32,661 bases of DNA. Origin: an uncultured Ignavibacteriaceae bacterium. Its GTDB lineage: Bacteria > Bacteroidota > Ignavibacteria > UBA10030. The stretch's first letter is position 1. Every line of letters starts with the position of its first letter. The notes below the pieces were generated by a model. It saw only the letters and a list, made by a program, of their open reading frames with translations. It was not told the DNA's origin and did not search any database. The position numbers and the translations under genes are program-made. Below, in pieces: positions 15,181 through 32,661 of the stretch. The DNA lies in NCBI GenBank assembly GCA_964361365.1, contig CAYIBG010000002.1, positions 1-32,661 of the forward strand, given 5' to 3'.

Positions 15181-15627
15181 GTGTCCCTTATCTTTAGTAA
15201 ATCCTGCGAGTACGCACTGCAGGCCTCTCTGTTTCTGGCCAAGCAGCCGAAGGATGAGTTCGTCCTCCTCCGCGAGATCTCAGACAAACTCGATATTCCT
15301 CATCACTTTCTCAGCAAAGTTCTTCAAACGCTCACACGCGCAGATTTCGTGACGTCGTACAAAGGCGCCAAGGGCGGCTTTACGCTTGCCCGGCCGTCGA
15401 AGGATATTTACCTCATGGAAATTGTCCGTGCCATGGACGGCGACAAGTTCCTGGAAGAGTGTGTCCTTGGTTTTCCCGGTTGCAGTGACAGGACTCCCTG
15501 TCCAGTACATCCCCAATGGAAGCGTGCAAAAGAAATTGTCATGAACATGCTTCAGAAAAAAACGCTTGCAGGGCTCAGCAAGGAGCTCGAACCAAAACTT
15601 GACCTTATAGCGCAACTCTCCGCTTGA
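15181..15627 (+). CDS. Rrf2 family transcriptional regulator (three-Cys, Fe-S-type), paralogue of 13774-14214
   Basis: 148 aa with a GTG start. CEYALQASLFLA helix-turn-helix region and Cys triad CVLGFPGCSDRTPC. Lies 59 nt upstream of the molybdoenzyme alpha gene. Confidence 0.85.
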   Translation: MSLIFSKSCEYALQASLFLAKQPKDEFVLLREISDKLDIPHHFLSKVLQTLTRADFVTSYKGAKGGFTLARPSKDIYLMEIVRAMDGDKFLEECVLGFPGCSDRTPCPVHPQWKRAKEIVMNMLQKKTLAGLSKELEPKLDLIAQLSA

Positions 15628-15686
15628 AGAGTTGTCGGCTGTCGCACGGGTCCCTCTGATCCAGAACCTTACAGAAGGAAAGAGCC

Positions 15687-18600
15687 ATGGATAAAATCAA
15701 CCGACGAAATTTTCTCGAGAAATCCGGCAAAGGATTTGTTGGTGGAGCTCTTTTGGGGAGTATGTTCGACCTCCACTTGCTTCAGTTTACTCAAGAAGTG
15801 GACAACCCCCTCGCCTTTTACCCAAATCGAGATTGGGAGAAAGTCTATCGCGACCAGTATCACTATGATCGATCATTCACCTACATCTGCGCTCCGAATG
15901 ATACTCATAATTGCCGGCTGCGAGCATTTGTCCGCAACGGCATCGTCGTGCGGATTGAACAGAATTATGATGCCACGGCCGTTTCAGACATTTACGGAAA
16001 CACAATCCCCCCTTCATGGAATCCACGCGGTTGTTCGAAAGGTTTTACCTACGTTCGCCGAATGTATGGGCCGTACCGTGTAAAATATCCGATGATCAGA
16101 AAGGGATGGAAAGAGTGGGCGGATGGCGGATTTCCAACAGATTCAAAAGGCGTTCCCGACCAGAAATACTTTTTGCGTGGCGAGGACAGTTGGATCAAGA
16201 TAAACTGGGATGACATCTCGACGTACGCAGCGAAAGGCTTGTTGCATGTGATGAAAAAGTATCAAGGAGAGCAAGGGGCCGAAAAGCTGAAAATACAGGG
16301 CTATCCTGAGGAGATGATTGAAGCGATGCACGGGAGCGGTGCACAAGTGCTTAAGATTCGTCCCGGCATGTCGATTCATGGCATTCTTCGCATTCAGGCG
16401 CTGAAGCGATTCGCGAACATGCTCGCATTGCACGACGAGGAAGAAGCAAAGAAGCACCATCGCGACCCGTACGGCGCCCGCTCATGGACGAATTACGATT
16501 GGCATGGTGACTTACCGCCCGGTCACCCGATGGTCACCGGCATTCAAACCCACGACGATGACCACAACAACTTCCGTCACGCCAGACTTTTCATTATGCA
16601 GGGCGTGAACTTTGTCGAAAACAAGATGTCGGACGCCCATTGGTGGATTGAAACCATGGAGCGCGGTGGAAAGATTGTGGTCATAGCCCCGGAGTACGGC
16701 CCTTCCGCGCAAAAAGCCGACTATTGGATTCCCGTTCGGCCGGGAACCGATCCGGCACTGCAGTTGGGCGTTACAAATGTTTTGTTTAAAGAAAAACTGT
16801 ACGACGCACCCTTCGTCAAACGATTCACCGATATGCCTCTCCTGGTTCGCATGGACACCCTGAAACTTCTTCGTGCGTCAGACATTTTCAAAGATTACAA
16901 GAATCAGGAGCTGAAGGGCTATAGTGTTCAAGTGCAAAAGATAGACCCCGAGGCCCGAGAGCGATGGGGCGACTTTGTTGTGTGGGACTCCAAGTCAAAG
17001 AAAACTGTTGCCGTGACAAGAGAGGATGTTGGAAAATATATTGACGAAATGAAGATTGATCCAGCTCTCGAGGGGACTTTTTCCGTGAAAGACATGAAGG
17101 GAAGACAAATCAAAGTTAAATCCGTCTTTCAACTCTATAAAGAGCTTTGCGCTGAATACGACCTGGATGCAACCCATGAGATCACTGGTTCCCCGAAAGA
17201 ACTTATCGTTCGTCTTGCGCGAGATCTTGGAAGCATCAGGCCAGCGGCGGTACACACCGGAGAAGGCGTGAACCACTACTTCCATTGCGATCTGACGACG
17301 CGAGGAACGTTCCTATGGATGGCCCTTACGGGCAATATCGGCAAACCGGGTTCGGGAGTTGGACACTGGGCAGGGAATTACAAGTTTTGCGTGTTCGATG
17401 GTCTTGCGAAATTTAATGGTGAAGATCCATTTAACATGAATCTTGACCCAAACGCAAACGGGAAGGATGTCAAGAGCAAGAAGTACTACAAGCCCGAGAA
17501 TCCGGCGTACTGGAATTACGAGGATCTTCCACTCATTGTGCAAACACAAGAAGGTCGCAAGGTCTTTACCGGGAAAACGCATATGCCCACACCGACGAAA
17601 GTGCAGTGGACTGCGAATGTGAATCTGCTGAACAACGCCAAGTGGGCATACAACATGGCAAAGAATGTGGACCCAAAGGTCGAGATGATCGTGGTCAATG
17701 AGATGGAATGGACTGGGAGCTGTGAGTTTGCTGATATCGTGTTACCCGTGGAGTGTTGGGCAGAACTCACGCTTCCCGATATGACTGCCTCATGCTCGAA
17801 TCCGTTTTTGCAGGCGTGGAAGGGGGGCGTGAAGCCAATTTTCGATAATCGCAACGACGCCTTGATCATGGCAGGAGTTGCTGCGAAGCTTGCCGAGTTG
17901 ACCGGCGATCAGCGCTACCGGGATTATTTCAAATTCATTTTAGAAGGAAAACCAGAGGTATACCTCCAGCGCGTCCTTGATGCCGGCACTACTACCGATG
18001 GCTACAAGATCGATGAACTACTCAAGAAAGATGCTGCGGTGTTGATGATGTTCCGAACCTATCCACGTATTCCAGGCTGGGAGCAAATCAATGAATCGAA
18101 ACCGTTCTATAACAAAACGGGGCGGATTGAATTTTACCGCGAAGAGGACGAGTTCATCGAATACGGCGAAAATCTCATTGTTCACCGCGAACCTGTCGAA
18201 GCGACGCCGTATCTTCCCAACGTCATCGTGGCATCTCATCCAGCGATCCGTCCACACAATTATGATCTTCCTCAGAACCATCCCGGCGCAGATGAGCGCT
18301 CCGTCAATAACGTGAAGATGCCCTGGAGGAAAGTGAAGCAGACACGCAGCTTCCTTTGGCAGCAGGGTTACCGATTCTGGTGCCTCACACCGAAATCACG
18401 GCACACAAATCACTCCTCCTGGGCTGTGACGGATTGGAATTTTATCTGGAACAACAACTTTGGCGACCCGTACCGGGCAGACAAGCGAATGCCCGGTGTG
18501 GGTGAGCATCAAGTCCAGATGAATCCCGATGATGCGAAAGAGCTTGGCATCAACGACGGCGATTATGTCTATGTCGATGCAAATCCTGCGGACCGACCAT

Positions 18601-19103
18601 ACAAAGGATGGAAGCCCAATGATCCCTTCTACAAGGTTTCTCGTTTGATGCTGCGCATGAAATACAATCCTGCATATCCGCGTGGAGTCACCATGATCAA
18701 ACATTCAGCCTTCATGGCGACTCCCAAATCGGTGAAGGCACATGAGACACGCGAGGATGGAAAGGCTGTTTCAGAAGATACCGGATATCAGGCCAGCTTC
18801 CGGTATGGTTCGCAACAAAGTATTACGCGCGGATGGCTTCAGCCAACGATGATGACGGATTCACTTGTGCGCAAGGATGTTATAGGACAGCACATTGGGG
18901 AAGGTTACGAAGAGGATGTCAACTCGCCGAACACTTGTCCCAAGGAAACCATGGTCCGCATCACGAAAGCGGAAGACGGAGGCATGGATGGGAAGGGATT
19001 ATGGGATCCCGTCAAAACACAGCTGACACCGGCTAACGAGAACGAAACGATGAAGAAGTATCTCGGGGGAGAATTCATCGAGAAAGGAACTTCCAATGGC
19101 TGA
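15687..19103 (+). CDS. nxrA: Tat-exported molybdopterin oxidoreductase alpha subunit, type II DMSO-reductase family, NxrA/NarG-like (periplasmic NXR-like clade)
   Basis: 1138 aa with the twin-arginine signal NRRNFLEKSG. N-terminal Fe-S (FS0) motif C68-x3-D72-x3-C76-x39-C116 (15888-16034). NarG-like core blocks (GDLPPGHP, SDAHWW, PEYGP). Confidence 0.85.
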   Translation: MDKINRRNFLEKSGKGFVGGALLGSMFDLHLLQFTQEVDNPLAFYPNRDWEKVYRDQYHYDRSFTYICAPNDTHNCRLRAFVRNGIVVRIEQNYDATAVSDIYGNTIPPSWNPRGCSKGFTYVRRMYGPYRVKYPMIRKGWKEWADGGFPTDSKGVPDQKYFLRGEDSWIKINWDDISTYAAKGLLHVMKKYQGEQGAEKLKIQGYPEEMIEAMHGSGAQVLKIRPGMSIHGILRIQALKRFANMLALHDEEEAKKHHRDPYGARSWTNYDWHGDLPPGHPMVTGIQTHDDDHNNFRHARLFIMQGVNFVENKMSDAHWWIETMERGGKIVVIAPEYGPSAQKADYWIPVRPGTDPALQLGVTNVLFKEKLYDAPFVKRFTDMPLLVRMDTLKLLRASDIFKDYKNQELKGYSVQVQKIDPEARERWGDFVVWDSKSKKTVAVTREDVGKYIDEMKIDPALEGTFSVKDMKGRQIKVKSVFQLYKELCAEYDLDATHEITGSPKELIVRLARDLGSIRPAAVHTGEGVNHYFHCDLTTRGTFLWMALTGNIGKPGSGVGHWAGNYKFCVFDGLAKFNGEDPFNMNLDPNANGKDVKSKKYYKPENPAYWNYEDLPLIVQTQEGRKVFTGKTHMPTPTKVQWTANVNLLNNAKWAYNMAKNVDPKVEMIVVNEMEWTGSCEFADIVLPVECWAELTLPDMTASCSNPFLQAWKGGVKPIFDNRNDALIMAGVAAKLAELTGDQRYRDYFKFILEGKPEVYLQRVLDAGTTTDGYKIDELLKKDAAVLMMFRTYPRIPGWEQINESKPFYNKTGRIEFYREEDEFIEYGENLIVHREPVEATPYLPNVIVASHPAIRPHNYDLPQNHPGADERSVNNVKMPWRKVKQTRSFLWQQGYRFWCLTPKSRHTNHSSWAVTDWNFIWNNNFGDPYRADKRMPGVGEHQVQMNPDDAKELGINDGDYVYVDANPADRPYKGWKPNDPFYKVSRLMLRMKYNPAYPRGVTMIKHSAFMATPKSVKAHETREDGKAVSEDTGYQASFRYGSQQSITRGWLQPTMMTDSLVRKDVIGQHIGEGYEEDVNSPNTCPKETMVRITKAEDGGMDGKGLWDPVKTQLTPANENETMKKYLGGEFIEKGTSNG

Positions 19104-19356
19104 GCCCGATGATTCGCAAAACCCAACGGATTTCGAACTCACACATTATGTCGTACCCGGCGATGTTGGAAGGGATCACGCGGCAGAAATGGCGGAAACG
19201 TTCGTCATCGAACTGAAACGGCTGCGATGGTCGAATGAGAGAATCCTGGATGCCTTTCGAAATCCTTTTTATGCGGGTCCCCATTATGCTCTGAAAGAGC
19301 GAGGGGAACAATATGTCCGTGATTTGGTCGAAAGTGTCAAAAACAGGAAATCCTAA
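19096..19356 (+). CDS. Hypothetical 86-aa protein between the alpha and beta genes
   Basis: The ATG overlaps the alpha gene end by 8 nt. Balanced, non-repetitive composition. It fills an otherwise 276-nt gap. No family recognised. Confidence 0.45.
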   Translation: MAEPDDSQNPTDFELTHYVVPGDVGRDHAAEMAETFVIELKRLRWSNERILDAFRNPFYAGPHYALKERGEQYVRDLVESVKNRKS

Positions 19357-19379: not shown

Positions 19380-20552
19380 ATGCCTAAAGTCTACAATTGG
19401 CAATTAGGTCGTGAAATGGAGTATCCCTACGAGGGAAAACGACCAAAGAGACAGTTTGCGGCCGTGTTCAATATTAACCGCTGCATTGGATGCCAAACTT
19501 GCACGATGGCGTGCAAGAGTACCTGGACCTATTCTAAGGGACAGGAAGCAATGTGGTGGAATAACGTTGAGACGAAACCTTACGGCGGATATCCGCAAAG
19601 TTGGGACGTGAAAACATTGGAGCTTCTCGGGCCACAACCCGGTTGGGATACCGTTAAGGCCGACTCTGAAAAGCCATACGGTGTTTATCGAGGTGAAACT
19701 CTCTTCGAGGCCGCAACAACGAGGGCCACCGGGAGCGGTGAACGGGCACTTGGTTATCTTCCCACGGAAAAGGAATGGCGCTCACCGAACTTCTACGAGG
19801 ACACTGCTTACTCGACGCTTGCATCCAAAGAGGGCCGCACCGCTGACGGCACAAAGCTCCCCGAACACAAAGCTTGGTTTTTTTATTTGCAGCGCATTTG
19901 CAACCATTGTTCGTATCCGGCGTGTCTGGCCGCTTGTCCACGCGGCGCAATTTATAAACGGCCTGAAGATGGAATCGTGCTTATCGACCAAAGCCAATGT
20001 CGGGGCTATCGGAAGTGCGTGGAGCAATGTCCATACAAGAAACCGATGTTTAACTCCGAGACACGGATTTCGGAGAAATGCATAGCCTGTTATCCGCGAG
20101 GAGAAGGTTCCGACCCGCTCACCGAGGGTGAGCCAATGGTCACGCGATGTGTAGCATCCTGCGTCGGGAAAATCCGCCTGCAGGGTTGGATCGACGATCC
20201 GGAGAGTCCCATACATTATCTTGTCCACAAAGCAAAGGTAGCGCTTCCACTTTACCCCCAGTTTGGTACAGAACCCAACATCTACTACATCCCTCCTCGA
20301 TGGGCTCCACGAGCGTACTTGAAACAGATGTTTGGTCCTGGCGTTGACCACGCTCTTACAGAATACGCAAATCCCACGCACGAACTCCTCGGAGTGCTGC
20401 AACTGTTTGGAGCAAGTCAAAACCTTGTTTATAGCTATCGAGTAGACGGAGACGAGGTTGTCGGGTTCGGAAAGCGAAGACAGGAAGTTGTGCGGGTTCC
20501 CATCGAAGATCCCGTGATCGTTCGCTCCGAAAAGCATTTGAATGTGACGTGA
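19380..20552 (+). CDS. nxrB: Molybdoenzyme beta subunit (four Fe-S clusters), NxrB/NarH-like
   Basis: 390 aa with an AAGGAGAA RBS. Cys motifs CIGCQTCTMAC, CNHCSYPACLAACP, CRGYRKCVEQCP and CIACYPR. No signal peptide, so probably exported by hitch-hiking on the Tat-signal-bearing alpha subunit. The N-terminus MPKVYNWQLGR resembles Nitrospira-type NxrB as I recall it. Confidence 0.9.
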   Translation: MPKVYNWQLGREMEYPYEGKRPKRQFAAVFNINRCIGCQTCTMACKSTWTYSKGQEAMWWNNVETKPYGGYPQSWDVKTLELLGPQPGWDTVKADSEKPYGVYRGETLFEAATTRATGSGERALGYLPTEKEWRSPNFYEDTAYSTLASKEGRTADGTKLPEHKAWFFYLQRICNHCSYPACLAACPRGAIYKRPEDGIVLIDQSQCRGYRKCVEQCPYKKPMFNSETRISEKCIACYPRGEGSDPLTEGEPMVTRCVASCVGKIRLQGWIDDPESPIHYLVHKAKVALPLYPQFGTEPNIYYIPPRWAPRAYLKQMFGPGVDHALTEYANPTHELLGVLQLFGASQNLVYSYRVDGDEVVGFGKRRQEVVRVPIEDPVIVRSEKHLNVT

Positions 20553-20599
20553 AAGGAATTCCTGAGACGGTCACCATCGTCCCAAGGAGGGAGAATGAT

Positions 20600-22324: not shown

Positions 22325-22334
22325 GAGGACAACG

Positions 22335-23831: not shown

Positions 23832-24080
23832 GTTGCAGTGCAGTCCTCCTCATTCTGCCAATAGCACGAAGTGCCCAAATCCCTGTAAGCTGCACTTTAC
23901 CGTCAACGGTTCTCTCTTCCCAAAAATGAAAAAAGCAGGCAGGCTCAGTTTCCCAGAGATAGGAACAGACTGCTTAAAAGGGCCAGCAAAGGCCAATTCT
24001 CGCCTATAAAATAAGATAAAAAACTCCGATTTCTGGTACAAGATTTGCCGTGCGTTCGGCGCATACGCTATCCATCCACC

Positions 24081-25996: not shown

Positions 25997-26536
25997 ATGA
26001 AACTCCTGGAAAACAAGAAGGAAAAATTTTTGGGGAAAGGTTCAGAAAACCGCAGAACTTTTCTTCAGAAACTGGGACTGGGCGGATTACTTGCCGGACT
26101 CACCGGGTTCGCCTATCAGTCCGTGCGGTCGCTAATTCCGAATGTTCTTTATGAAGCGCCGCAGAAATTTAAGGTGGGTCTGCCGGCTCAGCTTGCGGAT
26201 GGTGTGACGTTCCTGGAAGACCGCCGGCTCTACGTCTTCAAAGAGGGTAAATCCTTTTATGCGATTTCCGGAGCCTGCACACACCTCGGCTGCACGGTGA
26301 AGTACACAAAACTGAATAGTCCCAAGCACGTGGAAATCGGCGATGAAAAGAAGGCCATCAATTTTGAATTTCAGTGTCCCTGCCACGGGTCGAAGTTTTA
26401 TGCCGAGGGGACAAATTATGCAGGGCCGGCTCCGCGGCCGCTCTATTGGTACAAACTTGAGGTCTCGCCCGACGACGGTCAGCTGGTCGTCAACCTGGGT
26501 GAAGAAGTGGAACAGAATTTTCGTTTAACCGTGTAG
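25997..26536 (+). CDS. Rieske [2Fe-2S] subunit of a cytochrome bc-type complex
   Basis: ATG 25997. Twin-arginine and TM region NRRTFLQKLGLGGLLAGL. Rieske boxes CTHLGC and CPCHGS. Confidence 0.85.
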   Translation: MKLLENKKEKFLGKGSENRRTFLQKLGLGGLLAGLTGFAYQSVRSLIPNVLYEAPQKFKVGLPAQLADGVTFLEDRRLYVFKEGKSFYAISGACTHLGCTVKYTKLNSPKHVEIGDEKKAINFEFQCPCHGSKFYAEGTNYAGPAPRPLYWYKLEVSPDDGQLVVNLGEEVEQNFRLTV

Positions 26537-26546
26537 GAGCCGTCTG

Positions 26547-27872
26547 ATGGAAATCCTCGAATTAACGAAGCGGGTCTACAACAAGCTTACCTGGACATGG
26601 AATCCCGGCAGTGAAAAAGAAGCCGGGGATGCGATCGTCAAGAATCTGCTCCTCCACTGGTTTCCGAACAAGATTTCAAAGGAGAGCCTATCGTGGAAGT
26701 ATTCCATGTGGTTAGGAACCATCTCTTTCGTGTTGTTCGGCATTCTCACCGTCACGGGCGTCGTCCTCATGTTTCTGTATGTCCCGTCCGTTGAGAGGGC
26801 ATATTCATCAGTAAAAGACATCGAATTCGTCGTGTCGTTCGGCTGGCTCTTACGAGCGATGCATCGGATCTCTGCGCATCTCATGGTGGCCGTCGTGTTC
26901 CTCCACATGGTTCGAGTGTTCTTGACGGGAGCATACAAGAAAGGCGTTGCGGTCGGCTCCAATCGTCCGATGAATTGGATTGTTGGCCTCATCCTGCTCA
27001 TTATGACACTTCTGTTGTCTTTCACGGGATACTTGTTGCCGTGGGATCAACTGGCATACTGGGCCATCACGGTGGGCACCAACATCGCGAGTGCCGCGCC
27101 GGTTATCGGCGAGTGGATTCGTTTTATCCTACTGGGGGGAACGATGATCGATCAAAACGCTTTGATACGATTTTATGTTCTGCATGTCTTCTTCCTGCCG
27201 ATGATCGTTGTGTTCCTGTTTTCGTACCACATGTGGCGTGTTCGAAAAGATGGTGGACTCGCCGTAGCAGACCGGCTCGCACAGGATGAAAAAGTCCAGG
27301 AAGTCAAACCCGTCAAAACTAAAACCTTCTCGCTGCTCGGCATTACCAATGGAACAAGTGTTCATGTCCGATCGCTGGCGATTGATGAAGAAAAGAATTC
27401 CGTGTCATCTGCCCCGAATCTGCTGAGGAGAATTTGGATCGTCACGCTCGTGACCTTTCTCGCCGTTTTTGTCCTGTCGTTTATCTTCCGGGCGCCGCTC
27501 GAAGCTCCGGCGAATCCTTCGGTGACGCCGAACCCGGCAAAAGCGCCGTGGTATTTTTTGTGGCTGCAGGAACTCGTGACGATCACCACGCTCAAGGTCG
27601 GCTCGTTCACCATCAACGGCGCACTCATCGGAGGCATCATCCTTCCGGCAGTGTTGCTCGGCCTTGGAATCTGGTGGCCGTACCGGGACCGCTCGGACCT
27701 GAATACAGTCGGCATCTGGTTCGCACATGAACGTCGTAAGCAAAACTACATCTTTCTCGCAATCTGCCTCTTCATTATTGTGCTTACGATCGTCGGTACG
27801 TTCCTGAGAGGCCCTTACTGGAACTTCTACTGGCCGTGGGAACAGTGGCCAACGATGCCGGTGAAATTCTGA
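26547..27872 (+). CDS. Cytochrome b (fused b6-like and subunit IV-like halves)
   Basis: 441 aa, multi-TM. Haem-ligand His pairs (RAMHRISAHLM; VLHVFF...SYHMW). The Qo-site motif reads APWY (27543-27554). Confidence 0.85.
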   Translation: MEILELTKRVYNKLTWTWNPGSEKEAGDAIVKNLLLHWFPNKISKESLSWKYSMWLGTISFVLFGILTVTGVVLMFLYVPSVERAYSSVKDIEFVVSFGWLLRAMHRISAHLMVAVVFLHMVRVFLTGAYKKGVAVGSNRPMNWIVGLILLIMTLLLSFTGYLLPWDQLAYWAITVGTNIASAAPVIGEWIRFILLGGTMIDQNALIRFYVLHVFFLPMIVVFLFSYHMWRVRKDGGLAVADRLAQDEKVQEVKPVKTKTFSLLGITNGTSVHVRSLAIDEEKNSVSSAPNLLRRIWIVTLVTFLAVFVLSFIFRAPLEAPANPSVTPNPAKAPWYFLWLQELVTITTLKVGSFTINGALIGGIILPAVLLGLGIWWPYRDRSDLNTVGIWFAHERRKQNYIFLAICLFIIVLTIVGTFLRGPYWNFYWPWEQWPTMPVKF

Positions 27873-27897
27873 TGTACCTTTGAGAGGACGAGAATCA

Positions 27898-29121
27898 ATG
27901 GACCACAAGACCATCAAAGAAAAACTGAGTTTTGTAAAACTCGACAGGTTGATCGTGAATATCGTTGGCATCGCACTGTTCCTGGTCGTTGCGTTCAGCG
28001 TGTACGATTACTTTCAACCGGAGTGGCTGAGTTATCAGGCTGAGTTCAGAGACCTTGTGGAAGGGAAGTTCGGTCCTGAGCGAGCCGAGGCAGTTCCGTC
28101 CGGATTCCAGCAGATTTACCTGAAAACGTTGAACCGCACGGACCGATGCATCACATGTCACCAAGGGTTTGAGTGGACAGGGCTTGAAAACGCGCCTGAG
28201 CCTTTTCGAACCCACCCCAAGGAAATCCTGAAGACGCATCCGATTTCCCGGTACGGTTGTACAACATGTCACGGCGGCCAGGGTTATGCGACAGATATGG
28301 AACCTGCTCACGGATTGATCGAACACTGGGAAGAGCCCGTGCTGGGGAAGGAACTGGGGAATTTCTATGTCATGAGCGATAAGAAGGCGCTGATGCAAAT
28401 GCAGTGTAACGCCTGTCATCGTTTCGACAAGGAAACCAAAGGGGCGGGGTACATGAACCGAGCGAAGCAGCTCGTGGCCGAAAAGGGATGCCGCGCTTGC
28501 CACGTCATCAATGGCCGGGGAGGCACCGTGGCCCCCGACCTGACGCAGGAAGGCGACAAATCAGCCGCACAATTCAATTACGAGCGCATCAAAGGTCTGC
28601 ATTCCGAGTTTACGTGGCATGTTTCGCACTTTAAGAACCCGAAAGAACTTGTTCCCGAAACAGTCATGCCGAACTTCAACTTTGGCAGTGCCGATGCTCA
28701 AGCGTTGGCTATGCTGGTCATGAGCTGGAAGAGAAACGAGATCCCGGTGAGCTACATACCGAACAATAATTTCAAAGACACACCGACAAAAGAAGAGCTG
28801 GAAAAGGAAGAGAAGATGCTGAAAGGACCGGGGGCATTCTTCGTGAAGAAGAACTGTTTCGTGTGTCACTCTGTCTCCACGCTCGGCATCGATGCAGCCG
28901 CTCAAATAGGCCCTGACCTCGCGATGGCCGTCGAGGATGTTCAGTCCCGCTTTGGAAGAACGCTTGATGATTTTCTTGCAAAGCCGACGGGAACGATGGA
29001 GGTGGTGTTGTCTACCATGATCACGCTGACGGAAGAAGAGCGAAAGGAAGCGATCGAGAAGCTCCGGTTCGCCTACGAGCTGAAGCAAAAAGAAAAGAAA
29101 AAAATTGTTGTAAAGAAGTAA
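27898..29121 (+). CDS. Membrane-anchored pentahaem cytochrome c
   Basis: ATG 27898 with a GAGAGGA RBS. N-terminal TM helix. Five CxxCH motifs (CITCH, CTTCH, CNACH, CRACH, CFVCH). Confidence 0.8.
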   Translation: MDHKTIKEKLSFVKLDRLIVNIVGIALFLVVAFSVYDYFQPEWLSYQAEFRDLVEGKFGPERAEAVPSGFQQIYLKTLNRTDRCITCHQGFEWTGLENAPEPFRTHPKEILKTHPISRYGCTTCHGGQGYATDMEPAHGLIEHWEEPVLGKELGNFYVMSDKKALMQMQCNACHRFDKETKGAGYMNRAKQLVAEKGCRACHVINGRGGTVAPDLTQEGDKSAAQFNYERIKGLHSEFTWHVSHFKNPKELVPETVMPNFNFGSADAQALAMLVMSWKRNEIPVSYIPNNNFKDTPTKEELEKEEKMLKGPGAFFVKKNCFVCHSVSTLGIDAAAQIGPDLAMAVEDVQSRFGRTLDDFLAKPTGTMEVVLSTMITLTEEERKEAIEKLRFAYELKQKEKKKIVVKK

Positions 29122-29168: not shown

Positions 29169-31028
29169 ATGAAAACAAAACTCTTTGCAATCATTGCGCT
29201 CGTCATAACGTTGGTTTTATTGGCTGGCTGCGGTGGCGAACAACGAGGGAGAACGGCCCGTTCTGATGTGCAGGAAGCGGCGCTCAAAAGTTACGTCGCA
29301 CCGGGCGACCTGGACGAGTATTATATCTTCAAATCGGGCGGCCACTCGGGGCAAGTGTACGTCTACGGTATCCCCTCGATGCGTCATATCTCAACCATCC
29401 CCGTGTTCAGTCCCTATGCCGCAACGGGATACGGATTCGATAAAGAATCGAAGGAAATGCTCGGCGGGTTCACGTGGGGCGATGCGCACCATCCGTCACT
29501 CAGCGAAACAGACGGGGACTACGACGGGCGCTGGTTGTTCATTTCGGATAACGCGAACAATCGCATGGCTCGGGTCGACTTGCGCGATTTCAAGACCAAG
29601 CAGATCTTTGGACCGATCCCCAACGTCTCAGGGAATCATTGCTCCTCGTTCAGCACCGAGAACACGGAATACATCCTCGCCGGTTCGAGGTTTTCGATTC
29701 CTCTGCCGAAGGGTTCTTATGAGAAGATCGAGGATTATGCAACGAAGTACAAAGGGGTTGTCGCAGGGATCGAAGTCAACCCGAAGAGCGGCAACATGAC
29801 TCTTGGCTGGCAAGTACTGATGCCGCCATTTAACTATGATTTGGGCGATGCAGGAAAGGGTCCGAGTAAGGAATGGGGCTTCTGGACGTGCTACAACAGC
29901 GAGCGAGCGATCGGGAAACTTGAAGTTACTTCCACGCAGAAAGACCGTGACTATGTTGTTGCGGTAAACTGGAAATCCGCGGAAAAGGCAATCAAAGACG
30001 GCAAGTTCAGAATGATCGGCGGTGTCAAGGTGATTGACCCGAAACAAACCGAAGGAGTGGTATATCTGATGCCGGCTGCGAAGTCGCCGCACGGAGTGGA
30101 CATAAGCCCGGACGGCAAGTATATCATTGCCAGCGGAAAGTTGCAGAGCATTACCACGGTCTTCAATTTCGAAAAAATGCTGACGGCCATTCAAAAGAAG
30201 GATTTCACCGGTAACGAAGATGGAATTCCCGTCCTGAATTACGACGCCGTCAAAGACGCTGAAGTCAATGTGGGTCTCGGTCCATTGCATACACAGTTCG
30301 ACGATAAGGGTTTCGCCTACACGTCTCTGTTCGTTGAAAGTGCGGTTGCGAAGTGGAAGCTGGGAACATGGGAAGTCGTGGATAAAATCCCGGTATCGTA
30401 CAACATCGGCCACCTGACAGCGGCAGAAGGCGACACGAAGAATCCAGACGGCAAGTACCTGGTCGCCCTCAACAAGCTTTCCCATGGGCGGCATTTGAGC
30501 GTGGGTCCTTCGCAGCCAGAGTCCTCGCAGCTCATCGATATCAGCGGGGAAAAAATGGGATTACTCATGGATGCGTTCACAGAGCCCGAGCCTCATTACG
30601 CTCAGATCGTCAAAGCGGACAAGATAAAGCCGATCGAAGTATATCCGAAAGAGGAAAACAAACACCCGAAGGCGATCTGGGATATCAAGGACTCGAAGGT
30701 TGTCCGCAACGGCAGGAACGTTGAGGTGTACATGATTGCGGTTCGCTCAAGCTTCACGCCGACCAGTGTCGAAGTGAACAAAGGGGACAAGGTCACGATT
30801 TATATGACGAACATCGAGCAGACAACGGATGAACTGCACGGGTTAGGGATCAACGAGTATAACATCAACGTTGTCGTGGACCCGGGCGAGACGAAGACCA
30901 TCGAGTTCGTGGCGGATAAGCCGGGAGTGTTCCCGTTTTACTGCACGAATTTTTGCTCAGCGCTGCACCAGGAGATGCAAGGATATCTTCTCGTGAAGGG
31001 CGGAGGCAGTTCGGTTGTCTTAAACTAG
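29169..31028 (+). CDS. nosZ: Nitrous-oxide reductase, clade II (Sec-type, predicted lipoprotein)
   Basis: 619 aa with an AAAGGAGG RBS. No twin-arginine motif. Lipobox LLAGC (Cys21, 29229-29231). CuZ-region motif GDAHHP. C-terminal CuA motif CTNFCSALHQEM. Confidence 0.92.
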   Translation: MKTKLFAIIALVITLVLLAGCGGEQRGRTARSDVQEAALKSYVAPGDLDEYYIFKSGGHSGQVYVYGIPSMRHISTIPVFSPYAATGYGFDKESKEMLGGFTWGDAHHPSLSETDGDYDGRWLFISDNANNRMARVDLRDFKTKQIFGPIPNVSGNHCSSFSTENTEYILAGSRFSIPLPKGSYEKIEDYATKYKGVVAGIEVNPKSGNMTLGWQVLMPPFNYDLGDAGKGPSKEWGFWTCYNSERAIGKLEVTSTQKDRDYVVAVNWKSAEKAIKDGKFRMIGGVKVIDPKQTEGVVYLMPAAKSPHGVDISPDGKYIIASGKLQSITTVFNFEKMLTAIQKKDFTGNEDGIPVLNYDAVKDAEVNVGLGPLHTQFDDKGFAYTSLFVESAVAKWKLGTWEVVDKIPVSYNIGHLTAAEGDTKNPDGKYLVALNKLSHGRHLSVGPSQPESSQLIDISGEKMGLLMDAFTEPEPHYAQIVKADKIKPIEVYPKEENKHPKAIWDIKDSKVVRNGRNVEVYMIAVRSSFTPTSVEVNKGDKVTIYMTNIEQTTDELHGLGINEYNINVVVDPGETKTIEFVADKPGVFPFYCTNFCSALHQEMQGYLLVKGGGSSVVLN

Positions 31029-31037
31029 TAATTCCTG

Positions 31038-31068
31038 ATCGAGCCCTCCCGTGGAGGGAGGGCTCGAT
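31038..31068 (+). terminator. Strong GC-rich hairpin immediately after nosZ (terminator, attenuator or mRNA-stabilising stem)
   Basis: 13-bp perfect stem ATCGAGCCCTCCC/GGGAGGGCTCGAT with the 5-nt loop GTGGA. It is followed by TGGTTTG, which is only a weak U tract. Confidence 0.5.
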
Positions 31069-31094
31069 TGGTTTGCGGAAAGGATGTTCTTGAA

Positions 31095-31736
31095 ATGAAA
31101 AAGCTCATACAAAAGGCAACAACGTTTTTTGAGACTCCCGTCGACATACGAAGTCGACTCGTGGTGCTCGTTGCTGCAATTCTCCTGGTGCCCACATACT
31201 TTTTCCCTCTGTGGAACATGGAGCTCTATTCCAATCAGTTTCCTGAAGGTCTGGTGCTGAATATTTACTCGTACAAGCTCGAAGGCGGCAAATCTCCCTA
31301 CCGTGACGACCTCAAGGAGATCAACTCGCTGAACCATTACATCGGAATGCGACCGCTTCAGGAAGACGACTTTACCGAATTCAAATGGATTCCGTTTGTG
31401 ATCGGCGGAGTCATACTTCTCGCCCTGAGAGCCGTTGTGCTCGGCAAGATGTCTGAGCTCGTGGATTTGTTCGTGCTCTTCACGTATTTCGGCTTGTTTT
31501 CTCTCTGGGCCTTCTATCATAAGATGTATCTCTATGGACACGAGTTGGATCCAACATCAGCGATCAAAGTGGACCCCTTCACGCCGCCGATTTTTGGCCA
31601 CATGACGATGGCGAACTTCGAAGTTTACAGCTATCCGCAGCTCGGTTCATACTTCATGGGCGCAATGCCAATTCTGTTGCTCCTGGCAATGTGGCTTTCA
31701 CGACGTACAGCGCAAAAGGAAACGGCGGCCCGGTGA
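31095..31736 (+). CDS. Membrane protein downstream of nosZ (NosB-position candidate)
   Basis: 213 aa from ATG 31095 with a GGAAAGGA RBS. About four TM helices. It sits in the position held by the nosB membrane gene in clade II nos clusters. Homology not verified. Confidence 0.5.
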   Translation: MKKLIQKATTFFETPVDIRSRLVVLVAAILLVPTYFFPLWNMELYSNQFPEGLVLNIYSYKLEGGKSPYRDDLKEINSLNHYIGMRPLQEDDFTEFKWIPFVIGGVILLALRAVVLGKMSELVDLFVLFTYFGLFSLWAFYHKMYLYGHELDPTSAIKVDPFTPPIFGHMTMANFEVYSYPQLGSYFMGAMPILLLLAMWLSRRTAQKETAAR

Positions 31737-31737
31737 A

Positions 31738-32550
31738 ATGAGAATTCCAGGACTCATCATACCGAAGGAACACGGTGCATGGGCAGTCTTGCTCGTCCCG
31801 ATGATTGTCGTGTCGGGTGTCGTGGGAACATTCAGTCTCAACCTGTTGTTTCTGACTGGATCGGCGCTGCCAATGTTCATGAGCTCCGGCCCGGTGCAAA
31901 TGATCCTGAGGAACAGGCTCGTCGGTTCTCTGGAGAGTGAGAAGATGAGGGAGGCGAAGCTTTCGGCGGGACTGTATTTGGTCGCGAGCCTGATACTGGC
32001 GACGCCTCTTCTCCTGCAGGGCTTCTGGCTGCTGGCGGGGTTTGGTTTTCTGGCTGCCGTTTCGTTCTTGCTGAGTTTCTTCATTTCCAAAGGAACTCAC
32101 AAGACAGTTTGGTCCGACCTCCTGGCAGTCTTTGGTTTAACTCTGAGCGCTCCGAGCAGCTATTATGTACTGCAAGGATCGATCGACTCTCTATCGCTTG
32201 AGCTTTGGCTCCTGAATTTCTTGTTCTTTGGGTCAAGCGTCTTCTACGTTCATATGAAGATCACAGCGACAAAGTTTAAAGGCTCTGAACTGAAAGCACC
32301 GCAAAAACTCCTCCTCGGGAAGATGAACATCGCGTATCATGTTGTTGTGCTGGCGATTATTACGACGCTCGTGGCGCTGAATTACACCGAGGAATTGGCG
32401 ATGGGTGCGTTTGCGCCAATCTTGATTCACTCAATCTACGGTACAATCAAACTTTCCACAAAGGTCAGCTTCAAACGGCTGGGCTTCCTGCTTCTTGGCC
32501 AATCCATTGTGTTCGGCATTTTAGTGACCCTTTCGCTCAGGGTATCATGA
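31738..32550 (+). CDS. YwiC-like polytopic membrane protein
   Basis: 270 aa. The N-terminus PKEHGAWAVLLVP matches the P-x-(Q/E)HGAWAM motif I associate with the YwiC-like family. Multiple TM helices. The ATG lies 1 nt after the previous stop. Confidence 0.5.
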   Translation: MRIPGLIIPKEHGAWAVLLVPMIVVSGVVGTFSLNLLFLTGSALPMFMSSGPVQMILRNRLVGSLESEKMREAKLSAGLYLVASLILATPLLLQGFWLLAGFGFLAAVSFLLSFFISKGTHKTVWSDLLAVFGLTLSAPSSYYVLQGSIDSLSLELWLLNFLFFGSSVFYVHMKITATKFKGSELKAPQKLLLGKMNIAYHVVVLAIITTLVALNYTEELAMGAFAPILIHSIYGTIKLSTKVSFKRLGFLLLGQSIVFGILVTLSLRVS

Positions 32551-32661
32551 AAAAAAAGATCCTTACTGGAATTGCCTGGATTGCAGCGAGTTTGGGAACC
32601 CTCAGCGCGCAGTCGCAGAACGATCTTCAAGGATTGATCTCGAAGGCAAAGCCCGGCGACA
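32547..32661 (+). CDS. nosD: NosD (periplasmic copper-maturation beta-helix protein), N-terminal fragment truncated by the window end
   Basis: ATGA overlap with the previous gene. Signal peptide MKKKILTGIAWIAASLGTLSA, then LQGLISKAKPGD, the typical NosD N-terminal LQ..I..A.PGD motif. Only 38 codons are visible. Confidence 0.5.
   Translation, partial: MKKKILTGIAWIAASLGTLSAQSQNDLQGLISKAKPGD

What the first reader, a model, noticed from the sequence alone, without database searches (positions are those of the whole stretch)
15181..32661. One co-oriented island joins an NXR-like enzyme, an NAD(P)H-linked Rieske/cyt b complex and clade II NosZ
Over 17.5 kb every gene is on the + strand. Gaps are short or overlapping, apart from a 249-nt gap at 23832-24080. 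All periplasmic electron-carrying parts are c-type haems or CuA: the dihaem on the gamma subunit, the pentahaem cytochrome, and NosZ CuA. The NXR-like complex has no membrane anchor or quinol-oxidising subunit, so it must exchange electrons through such cytochromes. No nirS/nirK, nor, narK or napA is seen in the window. Two readings are possible. (a) Reductive: quinol passes through Rieske/cyt b and the pentahaem cytochrome to the NXR-like enzyme, which acts as a periplasmic nitrate reductase, and in parallel to NosZ. That would be a truncated denitrifier. (b) Oxidative: nitrite electrons pass via c haems to NosZ. Textbook E0' values are about +0.43 V for NO3-/NO2- and about +1.35 V for N2O/N2, so this would be strongly exergonic. 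The NAD(P)H module on the bc complex would then supply the uphill or bifurcating route to low-potential reductant that nitrite oxidisers need. I know of no organism shown to couple nitrite oxidation to N2O reduction, so (b) is speculation. The gene linkage is the kind of evidence that would motivate testing it.
Basis: partly seen in the sequence, partly recalled or inferred. Interest (0 to 1): 0.85.

Follow-up and report, generated by a model that had tools for sequence, protein, structure and literature searches.

The report
NXR-like cassette inserted beside nos operon
In an Ignavibacteriales bacterium, a gene cassette for a periplasmic nitrate/nitrite molybdoenzyme has been inserted just upstream of a widely conserved N2O-reductase operon, which has its own Rieske/cytochrome b complex; the most likely result is a nitrate reducer that also consumes N2O, not a new nitrite-oxidising metabolism.

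Summary
Two independent assemblies confirm the adjacency, so it is not a chimera. However, the "island" is two separate modules.

**nos module.** This runs GltD/NfnB-like flavoprotein, Rieske, cytochrome b, pentahaem cytochrome c, clade II NosZ, NosB. It is a conserved nos locus: NosZ follows in 51 of 51 informative genome loci from Ignavibacteriota, Bacteroidota and Acidobacteriota. Many of these loci carry a sigma54-like promoter element, and the window has one inside the 249-nt gap.

**NXR cassette.** This runs Rrf2, NxrA, orf86, NxrB, dihaem-NxrC, NarJ, FmdE, about 8.9 kb in total. It is inserted between a methyltransferase gene and that promoter. A collinear relative, L169, shows the empty site. 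NXR lies upstream of nos in only 1 of 49 genome loci. None of 36 other NXR loci carries NosZ.

**Phylogeny and context.** The alpha subunit keeps the Kuenenia NxrA active-site residues. It falls on the opposite side of a 100/100 bootstrap split from anammox and Nitrospinota NXRs. Its side includes homologues from the isolates Caldinitratiruptor and Symbiobacterium (nitrate reduction from memory, not checked), clusters beside nrfHA and Crp/Fnr genes, and clusters with their own Rieske/cytochrome b complexes.

The reductive reading (a) is favoured. The nitrite-to-N2O reading (b) is not excluded, but nothing found here specifically supports it.

The parts
13774..15106 (+). Rrf2-family regulator (13774-14214) and SAM methyltransferase (14225-15106). 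This is the native upstream context of the nos locus.
   Evidence: Pfam hits. Homologues lie directly upstream of GltD in relatives without NXR, for example L002, L004, L012 and L169.
15122..15150 (+). Sigma70-like promoter match (TTGACA-17-TATATT, 11 of 12) upstream of the cassette's Rrf2 gene.
   Evidence: This is a consensus match only; the region as a whole has no more such matches than shuffled sequence.
15181..15627 (+). Rrf2-family regulator (Rrf2b) with three Cys, belonging to the NXR cassette. It could be NsrR- or IscR-like.
   Evidence: Pfam PF02082 at 1.9e-31. NCBIfam places it at superfamily level only. Rrf2b homologues (59-69% identity) precede NxrA in L090, L096 and L101.
15687..19103 (+). 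NxrA-like molybdopterin catalytic subunit, 1138 aa, with a Tat signal.
   Evidence: 1421 bits over the full length against Kuenenia NxrA, PDB 7B04_B. Cys67, Asn70, Asp71 and Asp275 equivalents are conserved. Best database hit is 87% identical, named 'nrxA', from a Bacteroidota MAG.
19096..19356 (+). orf86, a small conserved protein between NxrA and NxrB. Function unknown.
   Evidence: No Pfam hit. Conserved at the same position in many related NXR loci, 34-97% identity.
19380..20552 (+). NxrB iron-sulfur subunit.
   Evidence: Pfam Fer4_11. TIGR03478, type II DMSO reductase beta subunit, 286 bits, below its cut-off.
20549..22324 (+). Gamma subunit: signal or anchor helix, a dihaem cytochrome c domain, and an EB_dh haem-b domain. 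The likely start is the ATG at 20600.
   Evidence: 2 CXXCH motifs. The N-terminal domain matches the Kuenenia dihaem cytochrome 6H5L_B at 1.9e-55. The C-terminal domain matches NxrC 7B04_C at 2.5e-31. The haem-b ligands Met155 and Lys305 are conserved.
22311..23117 (+). NarJ/TorD-type chaperone for type II DMSO reductases.
   Evidence: PF02613 at 1.7e-24. TIGR03482 hit.
23166..23831 (+). FmdE-like accessory protein; the last gene of the cassette.
   Evidence: PF02663 at 1.8e-28. Also present at the tail of the NXR cassettes in L092, L089 and L168.
24034..24048 (+). Sigma54-type -24/-12 promoter-like element (TGGTACAAGATTTGC), 47 nt upstream of GltD in the 249-nt gap.
   Evidence: Conserved in the alignment with relatives. 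Found at -36 to -78 in 25 of 79 nos loci, against a background of 0.016 per 150 nt. The window holds only 2 matches in total.
24081..25982 (+). GltD/NfnB-like FAD, NAD(P)H and FeS flavoprotein with a C-terminal 2x[4Fe-4S] domain. No signal peptide was noted in its N-terminus and it has no hydrophobic segment, so it is probably cytoplasmic.
   Evidence: Pfam Pyr_redox_2, Fer4_20 and Fer4. PDB relatives are NfnA/B, glutamate synthase small chain and dihydropyrimidine dehydrogenase. It is the first gene of the conserved nos block in 80 loci.
25997..26536 (+). Rieske [2Fe-2S] protein with a Tat motif (RRTFL).
   Evidence: PF00355. Sequence.
26547..27872 (+). Cytochrome b, about 8 hydrophobic segments.
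   Evidence: PF00033 at 9.7e-43. Hydropathy scan.
27880..29121 (+). Membrane-anchored pentahaem cytochrome c, presumed to be the c subunit of the Rieske/cytochrome b complex.
   Evidence: 5 CXXCH motifs. One N-terminal transmembrane segment. Conserved between cytochrome b and NosZ in all informative loci.
29169..31028 (+). Clade II (Sec-dependent) nitrous-oxide reductase NosZ, a lipoprotein.
   Evidence: TIGR04246, 913 bits against a cut-off of 625. LAGC lipobox, CuA motif CTNFCSALHQEM and DAHHP motif. PDB NosZ hits down to 3e-121.
31068..31736 (+). NosB, the clade II-specific membrane protein.
   Evidence: Contains LNHYIGM and YGHE, matching the NosB motifs LNHYIGM and YGHN quoted in PMC9697520. 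Follows NosZ in nearly all loci.
31738..32550 (+). YwiC-like membrane protein. The start of the next gene follows at about 32554 onward; in relatives that gene is NosD.
   Evidence: PF14256. L169 continues with NosD, NosF, a 113-aa ORF with no Pfam hit, and an ABC2_membrane_2 protein read as NosY.

Best explanation
The region is a composite of two respiratory modules.

**Module 1, window about 24030-32661.** This is the native clade II nos locus of an Ignavibacteriales bacterium. A sigma54-type promoter-like element precedes the genes. These encode a cytoplasmic GltD/NfnB-like NAD(P)H flavoprotein, a Rieske/cytochrome b/pentahaem-c menaquinol:cytochrome c oxidoreductase, Sec-exported NosZ, NosB, a YwiC-like protein and then NosD onward. 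It delivers quinol (and perhaps NAD(P)H) electrons to N2O.

**Module 2, window 15107 to about 24000.** This is an acquired cassette of about 8.9 kb with its own Rrf2 regulator. It encodes a Tat-exported NxrABC-type molybdoenzyme whose gamma subunit carries haem b plus two c haems, together with a NarJ chaperone and FmdE.

**Proposed function.** The enzyme most likely works as a periplasmic nitrate reductase (nitrate to nitrite). It would take electrons from the cytochrome c level through its dihaem domain. The likely donor is the adjacent Rieske/cytochrome b complex, which would make nitrate reduction electrogenic. The organism then reduces nitrate and N2O in parallel.

**Shown:** gene identities, the insertion architecture, the conservation statistics and the phylogenetic side of the alpha subunit.

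**Inferred:** the catalytic direction, the electron route from the pentahaem cytochrome to the dihaem domain, separate transcription of the two modules, and the role of the flavoprotein.
For: **Insertion architecture**
- L169 is collinear with the window from the acetyl-CoA hydrolase, TonB, MaeB, OFOR, Usp, Rrf2 and methyltransferase genes straight into GltD, Rieske, cytochrome b, c5, NosZ, NosB, YwiC and NosD/F plus an ABC membrane protein read as NosY. It has no NXR.
- NosZ follows GltD-Rieske-cytochrome b-c5 in 51 of 51 loci with enough downstream sequence. NXR lies upstream in 1 of 49 loci with enough upstream sequence.
- Closely related NXR cassettes sit in unrelated contexts (L092, L096). 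None of 36 other NXR loci carries NosZ.
- The nos promoter-like element is retained in the gap.
- The junction is reproduced in L168 and L089.

**Direction of catalysis**
- The alpha subunit lies on the non-NOB, non-anammox side of a 100/100 bootstrap split. Its side includes homologues from the isolates Caldinitratiruptor microaerophilus and Symbiobacterium terraclitae.
- A relative, L086, is flanked by nrfHA, Crp/Fnr-type regulators, ScdA and NnrS.
- Relatives in Hypogeohydataceae-type and Chloroflexota-like contigs carry their own Rieske/cytochrome b/multihaem-c genes in the same gene string.
- Purified Kuenenia NXR catalyses both directions (PMC8387239).
- Periplasmic nitrate reduction through a Rieske/cytochrome bc complex is established in Campylobacter jejuni (PMC6195509).
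- Haloarchaeal outward-facing Nar is linked to a bc1-type cytochrome b, NarC (PMC8301774).
- The rest of the window encodes heterotroph-type metabolism (OFOR, malic enzyme, acetyl-CoA transferase) and no CO2-fixation marker.
Against: - No sequence feature is known that fixes the direction of an NXR/NAR enzyme.
- The active site and the FS0 ligands are those of Kuenenia NXR (Asp-type FS0), and the haem b has the high-potential Met/Lys ligation.
- The relatives from isolates may owe any nitrate reduction to other enzymes. That they reduce nitrate at all is my recollection of the species descriptions, and their genomes could not be scanned.
- The tree uses only the 120 best hits, is neighbour-joining, and is rooted at the midpoint without an outgroup.
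- No terminator-like site follows FmdE, so read-through into nos is possible.
- NXR ended up directly upstream of the nos Rieske/cytochrome b genes in two lineages (the window species and L032). This could reflect selection for a tighter functional link than simple parallel use.
Confidence: 0.6

Rival explanations
1. One reading: the NXR-like enzyme oxidises nitrite, and the electrons pass through c-type haems to NosZ. This would be anaerobic nitrite oxidation with N2O as the electron acceptor. The GltD-like module on the Rieske/cytochrome b complex would supply NAD(P)H by reverse or bifurcating electron flow.
For:
- NXR is reversible (PMC8387239).
- All periplasmic carriers are c haems or CuA.
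- The cassette sits directly upstream of the nos Rieske/cytochrome b genes in two lineages.
- Anammox Rieske/cytochrome b complexes with an NAD(P) oxidoreductase subunit have been proposed to make NAD(P)H by bifurcation (PMC12954380).
Against: - The flavoprotein-Rieske/cytochrome b-NosZ block is conserved in 51 of 51 loci, nearly all without NXR. It did not evolve to serve nitrite oxidation.
- None of 36 other NXR loci carries NosZ.
- The alpha subunit lies on the side of the split that lacks known nitrite oxidisers.
- The window shows heterotroph-type genes and no autotrophy marker.
- No paper describing such a metabolism was found.
Confidence: 0.05
2. The NXR-like enzyme oxidises nitrite, but not in connection with NosZ. 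Electrons go to a high-affinity terminal oxidase elsewhere in the genome, as mixotrophic or detoxifying nitrite oxidation. The adjacency to nos is incidental.
For: - The active site is of the Kuenenia NXR type and the haem b has high-potential Met/Lys ligation.
- MAG studies have suggested non-autotrophic nitrite oxidation for periplasmic NXR genes in heterotroph MAGs (PMC9306079).
- Ignavibacterium album has cbb3 and caa3 oxidases (PMC3362086).
Against: - Contexts of relatives point to nitrate and nitrite reduction: nrfHA and Crp/Fnr genes in L086.
- Several relatives carry quinol-oxidising Rieske/cytochrome b partners.
- Caldinitratiruptor and Symbiobacterium, which I recall as nitrate reducers (not checked here), lie on the same side of the tree.
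- No oxidase genes are present in the window.
Confidence: 0.12
3. The enzyme acts on another oxyanion or substrate typical of type II DMSO reductases, such as chlorate, perchlorate or selenate, and not on nitrate or nitrite.
For: - Type II DMSO reductase family members with EB_dh-type gamma subunits use many substrates. PcrA and EbdA are the next-best PDB hits.
- The protein is below the NCBIfam cut-offs for narG and for the type II alpha subfamily.
Against: - The alignment to Kuenenia NxrA is full-length at 1421 bits, against 241 bits for PcrA.
- Identity to anammox and Nitrospinota NxrA is 55-58%.
- The substrate-positioning Asn70 and the Mo ligand Asp275 are conserved.
- No chlorite dismutase gene, and no other partner gene specific to such a pathway, is present in the window.
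Confidence: 0.07
4. The adjacency is functionally neutral. The NXR-like nitrate reductase receives electrons from another donor, such as alternative complex III or a soluble cytochrome c. It does not use the nos-linked Rieske/cytochrome b complex.
For: - In L092 and L096 the cassette sits away from any Rieske/cytochrome b or nos genes.
- The Ignavibacterium album genome paper reports alternative complex III as its quinol:cytochrome c oxidoreductase (PMC3362086).
- The two modules have separate promoter-like elements.
Against: - Several clade relatives carry a dedicated Rieske/cytochrome b complex next to NXR. A bc-type partner therefore looks like a recurrent requirement.
- In two Ignavibacteriales lineages the cassette lies directly upstream of the nos Rieske/cytochrome b genes.
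Confidence: 0.25

Closest known systems
Periplasmic NXR of anammox bacteria, Nitrospira and Nitrospina (Kuenenia stuttgartiensis NxrABC, PDB 7B04)
   Same: - Tat-exported alpha subunit of about 1140 aa, aligned end to end (1421 bits).
- Asn70, the Mo ligand Asp275 and the 3Cys/1Asp FS0 site are conserved.
- NxrB is present.
- The gamma subunit is of the EB_dh type, with Met/Lys haem b ligation.
- There is no membrane quinol-oxidising subunit.
   Different: - Only 55-58% identical.
- It lies on the other side of a 100/100 bootstrap split from anammox and Nitrospinota sequences.
- The gamma subunit is fused to a dihaem cytochrome c domain homologous to Kuenenia Kustc0457 (6H5L_B).
- The host is a heterotroph-type Ignavibacteriales bacterium.
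- No NXR-T or tubule context is evident.
Clade II (Sec-dependent) nos gene clusters with associated iron-sulfur, b-type and c-type cytochrome genes (quoted in PMC9697520); Rieske/cytochrome bc-dependent N2O respiration in Wolinella (Hein et al. 2017, cited in PMC9697520)
   Same: - Sec/lipoprotein NosZ above the TIGR04246 cut-off.
- NosB with the LNHYIGM and YGH motifs directly downstream.
- Rieske, cytochrome b and cytochrome c genes directly upstream.
- No nosR or nosX in the window.
   Different: - The block begins with a GltD/NfnB-like NAD(P)H flavoprotein that is conserved with it in 80 loci. I found no paper describing this for nos clusters.
- A YwiC-like gene follows NosB.
- The NXR cassette has been inserted upstream.
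Anammox Rieske/cytochrome b complexes Kuste4569-4574 and Kustd1480-1485, which carry an NAD(P) oxidoreductase subunit (PMC12954380)
   Same: The gene cluster combines Rieske, cytochrome b, a multihaem cytochrome c and a cytoplasmic FAD, FeS and NAD(P)-binding subunit. A very high-potential periplasmic acceptor is available.
   Different: - No HAO-like octahaem protein.
- Cytochrome b is a single 441-aa protein.
- Orthology of the flavoprotein to Kuste4570 or Kustd1483 was not tested.
- The associated terminal enzyme is NosZ.
Outward-facing Nar of haloarchaea with bc1-type NarC (PMC8301774), and Qcr-dependent periplasmic nitrate reduction in Campylobacter jejuni (PMC6195509)
   Same: The nitrate-reducing molybdoenzyme faces the periplasm, has no NarI, and is fed from menaquinol through a Rieske/cytochrome b-type complex. 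This makes nitrate reduction electrogenic. An EbdC-like gamma candidate is present.
   Different: - The catalytic subunit here is NXR-type (Asp-ligated FS0), not NarG-type (His-ligated) and not NapA.
- The Rieske/cytochrome b genes belong to the neighbouring nos module, not to the NXR operon.

Membership tests
Periplasmic NXR/NAR clade of type II DMSO reductases (Kuenenia/Nitrospira/Nitrospina type) | Tat-exported alpha subunit homologous over its full length to NxrA | tested here: met
   RRNFL motif at the N-terminus. 1421 bits, query residues 3-1132 against 7B04_B residues 2-1145.
Periplasmic NXR/NAR clade of type II DMSO reductases (Kuenenia/Nitrospira/Nitrospina type) | Mo-ligand Asp275, substrate-positioning Asn70, and FS0 ligated by 3 Cys plus Asp71 | tested here: met
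   CAPNDTHNC aligns with Kuenenia CSPNDTHAC, and WHGD aligns with WHGD. Residue roles are taken from PMC8387239.
Periplasmic NXR/NAR clade of type II DMSO reductases (Kuenenia/Nitrospira/Nitrospina type) | EB_dh-type gamma subunit with Met/Lys-ligated haem b | tested here: met
   7B04_C match at 5e-32. Met155 and Lys305 align with Met and Lys in the window protein.
Periplasmic NXR/NAR clade of type II DMSO reductases (Kuenenia/Nitrospira/Nitrospina type) | Groups phylogenetically with enzymes of proven nitrite oxidisers | tested here: not met
   Neighbour-joining tree of the window protein plus the 120 best hits. The window lies opposite anammox (P0060) and Nitrospinota across a split with 100/100 bootstrap support. 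The tree has no outgroup and includes no named Nitrospira sequence.
Periplasmic NXR/NAR clade of type II DMSO reductases (Kuenenia/Nitrospira/Nitrospina type) | Physiological direction is nitrite oxidation | not testable with these tools
   This needs enzyme assays or physiology. Kuenenia NXR works in both directions (PMC8387239).
Clade II (Sec-dependent) NosZ and its nos cluster | NosZ matches the Sec-dependent equivalog model and carries a Sec signal, not a Tat signal | tested here: met
   TIGR04246, 913 bits against a cut-off of 625. The Tat-type model scores 508, below its cut-off of 625. Signal peptide MKTKLFAIIALVITLVLLAGC.
Clade II (Sec-dependent) NosZ and its nos cluster | NosB membrane protein adjacent to nosZ, with its conserved motifs | tested here: met
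   The protein encoded at 31068-31736 has LNHYIGM and YGHE. The reference motifs are quoted in PMC9697520.
Clade II (Sec-dependent) NosZ and its nos cluster | NosD, NosF and NosY maturation genes downstream; no NosR or NosX | tested here: inconclusive
   The window ends at the start of the next gene. The collinear relative L169 has NosD, NosF, a 113-aa ORF with no Pfam hit, and an ABC2_membrane_2 protein read as NosY. No NosR or NosX domain is present in the window.
Rieske/cytochrome b complexes with an NAD(P) oxidoreductase subunit (anammox type) | Adjacent genes for Rieske, cytochrome b, a multihaem cytochrome c and a FAD/FeS/NAD(P) flavoprotein | tested here: met
   Pfam and PDB matches. 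The gene order is conserved in 80 loci.
Rieske/cytochrome b complexes with an NAD(P) oxidoreductase subunit (anammox type) | Flavoprotein orthologous to Kuste4570 or Kustd1483 and physically bound to the complex | not tested
The homologue search listed only the 120 best hits (all at least 77% identical to the query), so no distant relatives were seen.
Rieske/cytochrome b complexes with an NAD(P) oxidoreductase subunit (anammox type) | HAO-like octahaem partner in the cluster | tested here: not met
   No HAO-like protein is present. The only multihaem protein has 5 CXXCH motifs.
Mobile genomic island | Integrase or transposase, flanking direct repeats, or a tRNA target | tested here: not met
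   No such Pfam domain. No tRNA. No flanking repeats.
Mobile genomic island | An empty site in a collinear relative | tested here: met
   In L169 the methyltransferase gene is followed directly by GltD, with collinear flanks on both sides.

The most novel reading that the evidence does not exclude
The NXR-like enzyme runs oxidatively and feeds nitrite electrons through its dihaem domain and the c-type cytochromes to clade II NosZ. This would be anaerobic nitrite oxidation with N2O as the acceptor. The conserved NfnB/GltD-like subunit would let the Rieske/cytochrome b complex produce NAD(P)H by quinol bifurcation, pulled by the very high-potential N2O branch.

A weaker and more probable sub-claim, at roughly 0.15, concerns only the conserved flavoprotein-Rieske/cytochrome b-NosZ module. 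On this view that module is an NAD(P)H-linked, possibly bifurcating, N2O-respiring complex, independent of NXR.
Probability: 0.05. Interest if true: 0.9.

Novelty: new variant of a known kind. Interest (0 to 1): 0.45.

Why it matters
- **MAG annotation.** Periplasmic NXR-type genes are routinely scored in metagenomes as markers of nitrite oxidation. This locus adds evidence that a large sister clade lives in heterotrophs, probably as an electrogenic periplasmic nitrate reductase. That would change how such MAGs are read in nitrogen budgets.
- **N2O sinks.** In at least two Ignavibacteriales lineages the cassette has landed beside the N2O-reductase operon. The result is an organism that could turn nitrate into nitrite while acting as an N2O sink. 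This is relevant to anammox and denitrifying reactors and to soils.
- **A conserved module worth biochemical study.** The flavoprotein-Rieske/cytochrome b-pentahaem-NosZ block was found in all 51 informative loci across two phyla, and it parallels the unusual anammox bc complexes.

Tried and rejected
- **Exact look-up of the window NxrA** in the contig index found nothing.
- **L001, the closest genome representative.** It cannot show whether that genome has the cassette.
- **Mobile-element signatures** around the cassette (tRNA, Rfam families, direct or inverted repeats, integrase domains): none found. GC content shows no step at the cassette borders.
- **Literature on nitrite oxidation coupled to N2O reduction** returned only papers on oxygen-minimum-zone NOB and anammox isotopes.
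- **Literature on the Caldinitratiruptor nitrate reductase** gave no enzyme-level data.
- **Literature on a GltD-like gene in nos clusters** returned nothing specific.
- **GltD-like homologue search.** Only the 120 best hits are listed, and all are at least 77% identical. Orthology to the anammox flavoprotein subunits could not be assessed.
- **A terminator after FmdE** was looked for and not found. Separate transcription therefore rests only on the conserved promoter-like element.
- **"Assembly chimera" was considered and rejected**, because two independent assemblies carry the junction.

Full report

Yes. ORF listing, Pfam, NCBIfam and PDB sequence searches give this + strand gene string:
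- Rrf2 regulator, 15181-15627.
- NxrA-like, 15687-19103.
- orf86, 19096-19356.
- NxrB, 19380-20552.
- Gamma subunit, 20549/20600-22324.
- NarJ-like, 22311-23117.
- FmdE-like, 23166-23831.
- A 249-nt gap.
- GltD/NfnB-like flavoprotein, 24081-25982.
- Rieske, 25997-26536.
- Cytochrome b, 26547-27872.
- Pentahaem cytochrome c, 27880-29121.
- NosZ, 29169-31028.
- NosB, 31068-31736.
- YwiC-like, 31738-32550.
- The first codons of the next gene.

NosZ has a lipoprotein Sec signal and exceeds the cut-off of the Sec-dependent NosZ model (913 bits against 625). It is therefore clade II. The NXR-like complex has no NarI-type anchor. Only the gamma subunit has an N-terminal hydrophobic segment. No nir, nor, narK or nap domain occurs anywhere in the window.

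Two qualifications apply. First, every convincing gene in the whole 32.6-kb window is on the + strand, so co-orientation does not define an island. Second, the adjacency is not an assembly artefact. An NCBI MAG contig (L168) is collinear with window 18275-28117 at 93.7% nt identity in a single alignment across the FmdE-GltD junction. A JGI metagenome contig (L089) has the same junction.

**2. What the downstream half is**

I fetched 80 genome loci encoding close relatives of the GltD-like protein, one genome per species. They come from Ignavibacteriales and other Bacteroidota-labelled MAGs (70-95% identity) and from Acidobacteriota (59-68%).

In every locus with at least 7 kb downstream (51 of 51), the flavoprotein gene is followed on the same strand by Rieske, cytochrome b, the pentahaem cytochrome, NosZ and usually NosB. 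The 222-aa protein after NosZ carries LNHYIGM and YGHE. These match the NosB motifs quoted in PMC9697520. In a longer relative the string continues with NosD, NosF, a 113-aa ORF with no Pfam hit, and an ABC2_membrane_2 protein that I read as NosY.

The "NAD(P)H-linked Rieske/cytochrome b complex" is therefore a standing component of the clade II nos locus in these phyla. It is not a partner that came with NXR.

The 249-nt gap contains TGGTACAAGATTTGC at 24034-24048. This is a sigma54-type -24/-12 match. It aligns with the same element in relatives. The same pattern lies 36-78 nt upstream of the flavoprotein gene in 25 of 79 loci, against a background of 0.016 matches per 150 nt. The window has only two matches in total. 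Promoter function is inferred, not shown.

**3. What the upstream half is**

NxrA aligns end to end with Kuenenia NxrA (1421 bits; the next-best PDB hit, PcrA, scores 241). It keeps the Cys67/Asn70/Asp71 FS0 and substrate motif and the Mo ligand Asp275. The C-terminal domain of the gamma subunit matches Kuenenia NxrC and keeps the Met155 and Lys305 haem-b ligands. Its N-terminal dihaem domain matches chain B of PDB 6H5L at 2e-55. A preprint lists 6H5L as a Kuenenia HAO structure. From memory, chain B is the dihaem partner Kustc0457.

**4. The cassette is an insertion**

Only 1 of 49 genome loci with at least 8.7 kb upstream of the flavoprotein gene has NXR genes. That locus is L032, an Ignavibacteriales groundwater MAG.

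The JGI contig L169 (flavoprotein 84% identical) is collinear with the window on both sides. Upstream it has acetyl-CoA hydrolase, TonB, MaeB, the four-subunit 2-oxoacid:ferredoxin oxidoreductase, Usp, Rrf2 and the methyltransferase. It then runs directly into the flavoprotein, Rieske, cytochrome b, c5, NosZ, NosB, YwiC and NosD genes. Window 15107 to about 24000 is therefore an insertion of about 8.9 kb between the methyltransferase gene and the nos promoter-like element.

The cassette brings its own Rrf2 gene. Rrf2b homologues precede NxrA in L090, L096 and L101. Closely related cassettes (NxrA 84-86% identical) sit in other contexts:
- L092 lies between citrate synthase/DHDPS genes and a type IX secretion substrate gene.
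- L096 lies downstream of type IX secretion substrate genes.

From the NXR side, none of 36 loci with at least 6 kb of flank carries NosZ. No integrase, tRNA, flanking repeat or GC step marks the borders.

In L032 the tail of the cassette differs (HEAT-repeat, DksA-like, MoaA and MobA genes in place of FmdE). The two nos-adjacent cases are either an old shared insertion that later diverged, or two independent insertions. I could not decide between these.

**5. Which way does the enzyme run?**

Sequence cannot settle this. Purified Kuenenia NXR catalyses both reactions (PMC8387239). Comparative evidence favours reduction.

- **Phylogeny.** In a neighbour-joining tree of the window protein plus its 120 best database hits, the window lies with sequences from Bacteroidota, Chloroflexota, Ca. 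Hypogeohydataceae, Zixibacteria, Ca. Acidoferrales and Thermoplasmata MAGs, and from the isolates Caldinitratiruptor microaerophilus and Symbiobacterium terraclitae. Anammox (Kuenenia/Brocadia cluster P0060), Nitrospinota, NC10 and Tectomicrobia sequences lie across a split supported in 100 of 100 bootstraps. Identity is 55-58% to that side and 57-87% within its own side.
- **DNRA-type context.** A relative (L086, 64% identical) is flanked by nrfHA, three Crp/Fnr-type genes, ScdA/hemerythrin and NnrS.
- **Own bc complexes.** Relatives with the same dihaem-gamma fusion carry their own Rieske/cytochrome b/roughly 950-aa multihaem cytochrome genes in the same string (L083, L084, L085, L098-L103, L128). 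This layout recalls outward-facing haloarchaeal Nar with bc1-type NarC (PMC8301774). It also recalls the demonstrated Qcr-dependent, electrogenic periplasmic nitrate reduction of Campylobacter jejuni (PMC6195509).
- **Host metabolism.** The rest of the window is heterotroph-type metabolism. The Ignavibacterium album genome paper reports NrfAH and NosZ but no nitrate reductase (PMC3362086). Gaining this cassette would plausibly complete a nitrate-to-nitrite (to ammonium) chain, with NosZ removing N2O. That last point is inference.

The caveats are these:
- The tree has no outgroup and includes no named Nitrospira sequence.
- That Caldinitratiruptor and Symbiobacterium reduce nitrate is my recollection of the species descriptions. 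It was not checked here.
- Those isolates may owe any nitrate reduction to other enzymes.
- The active site is indistinguishable from that of a nitrite-oxidising NXR.

**6. Mechanism proposed**

Menaquinol is oxidised by the Rieske/cytochrome b complex. The membrane-anchored pentahaem cytochrome passes electrons to NosZ (CuA). When the cassette is expressed, it also passes them to the dihaem domain of the gamma subunit, then to haem b, the FeS chain and the Mo site, where nitrate is reduced to nitrite.

The two modules are probably regulated separately. The cassette has Rrf2b and a sigma70-like site at 15122-15150. The nos module has the sigma54-like site. No terminator separates them, so read-through is possible.

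The role of the flavoprotein is open. It could feed NAD(P)H electrons into the complex. Alternatively, as proposed for the anammox complexes (PMC12954380), it could take the low-potential electron of a quinol bifurcation.

My confidence is about 0.9 that the locus is a composite produced by insertion. It is about 0.6 for the full statement including the reductive direction.

**7. Reading (b) and novelty**

Nitrite oxidation coupled to N2O reduction is thermodynamically possible and is not excluded. Its specific supports fall away, however:
- The flavoprotein-bc complex is not an NXR accessory.
- The synteny is confined to two close lineages.
- The alpha subunit is not on the nitrite-oxidiser side of the tree.

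I put it at about 0.05.

Periplasmic NXR-like genes of unknown direction in heterotroph MAGs have already been reported (PMC9306079). Clade II nos clusters with iron-sulfur and cytochrome genes are also known (PMC9697520). What is new here is the documented insertion of such a cassette at the nos promoter. Also possibly new is the finding that a GltD/NfnB-like flavoprotein is a conserved first gene of these nos loci. I found no paper describing that. I therefore class the finding as a new variant of a known kind, of moderate interest.

Noticed in passing
window 24081-29121, and L001-L080: A GltD/NfnB-like NAD(P)H flavoprotein is the conserved first gene of the Rieske/cytochrome b/pentahaem/NosZ block in all 80 loci fetched from Ignavibacteriota/Bacteroidota and Acidobacteriota. 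This parallels the anammox bc complexes that carry NAD(P) oxidoreductase subunits. I found no paper describing it for nos clusters.
   Followed up: partly
L012, and PMC3362086: The Ignavibacterium album genome paper states that the species has alternative complex III and no cytochrome b-Rieske complex. Yet a MAG labelled I. album (L012) and essentially all Ignavibacteriales loci have Rieske and cytochrome b genes directly upstream of nosZ. The nos-linked complex may have been overlooked in that paper.
   Followed up: no
window 19096-19356: orf86 is a small protein with no Pfam match. It overlaps the end of NxrA by 8 nt. It is conserved at the same position between NxrA and NxrB in many related NXR loci, at 34-97% identity.
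   Followed up: partly
window 2876-2889: A second sigma54-type match (GGCATGGCAGTTGC) lies in the 677-nt gap upstream of the alanine dehydrogenase/PNT-like gene at 3143-4285.
   Followed up: no
L169 7794-9002: The collinear relative has a 402-aa Fer4_5 polyferredoxin gene (NapH/NosH-like) between the Rrf2 and methyltransferase genes. The window lacks it.
   Followed up: no
L089 5092-5907: A same-species metagenome contig carries about 800 nt between NarJ and FmdE that are absent from the window. This points to strain-level variation inside the cassette.
   Followed up: no
L083, L084, L085, L098-L103, L128: NXR-like clusters with the dihaem-gamma fusion in Ca. Hypogeohydataceae-type and Chloroflexota-like contigs are directly followed or preceded by their own Rieske, cytochrome b and roughly 950-aa multihaem cytochrome c genes.
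   Followed up: partly
L086 1-23399: An NXR-like cluster (NxrA 64% identical) sits beside nrfHA, three Crp/Fnr-type regulator genes, ScdA/hemerythrin, NnrS, cupredoxins and a multicopper oxidase. This is a nitrate/nitrite-reduction and NO-stress neighbourhood.
   Followed up: no
L026 966-2429 (- strand): One nos locus has a dihaem-EB_dh gamma-like gene (32% identical) divergent from the Rrf2 and flavoprotein genes. This hints at another type II DMSO reductase next to nos. The contig is too short to see more.
   Followed up: no
window 13774-14214 and 15181-15627: Two paralogous Rrf2-family regulators lie 1.4 kb apart. One is native to the nos locus (60-74% identical to relatives). The other came with the NXR cassette and is only 39-51% identical to those relatives. 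NCBIfam places both at superfamily level only. The one checked by eye (Rrf2b, 15181-15627) has a three-Cys motif.
   Followed up: partly
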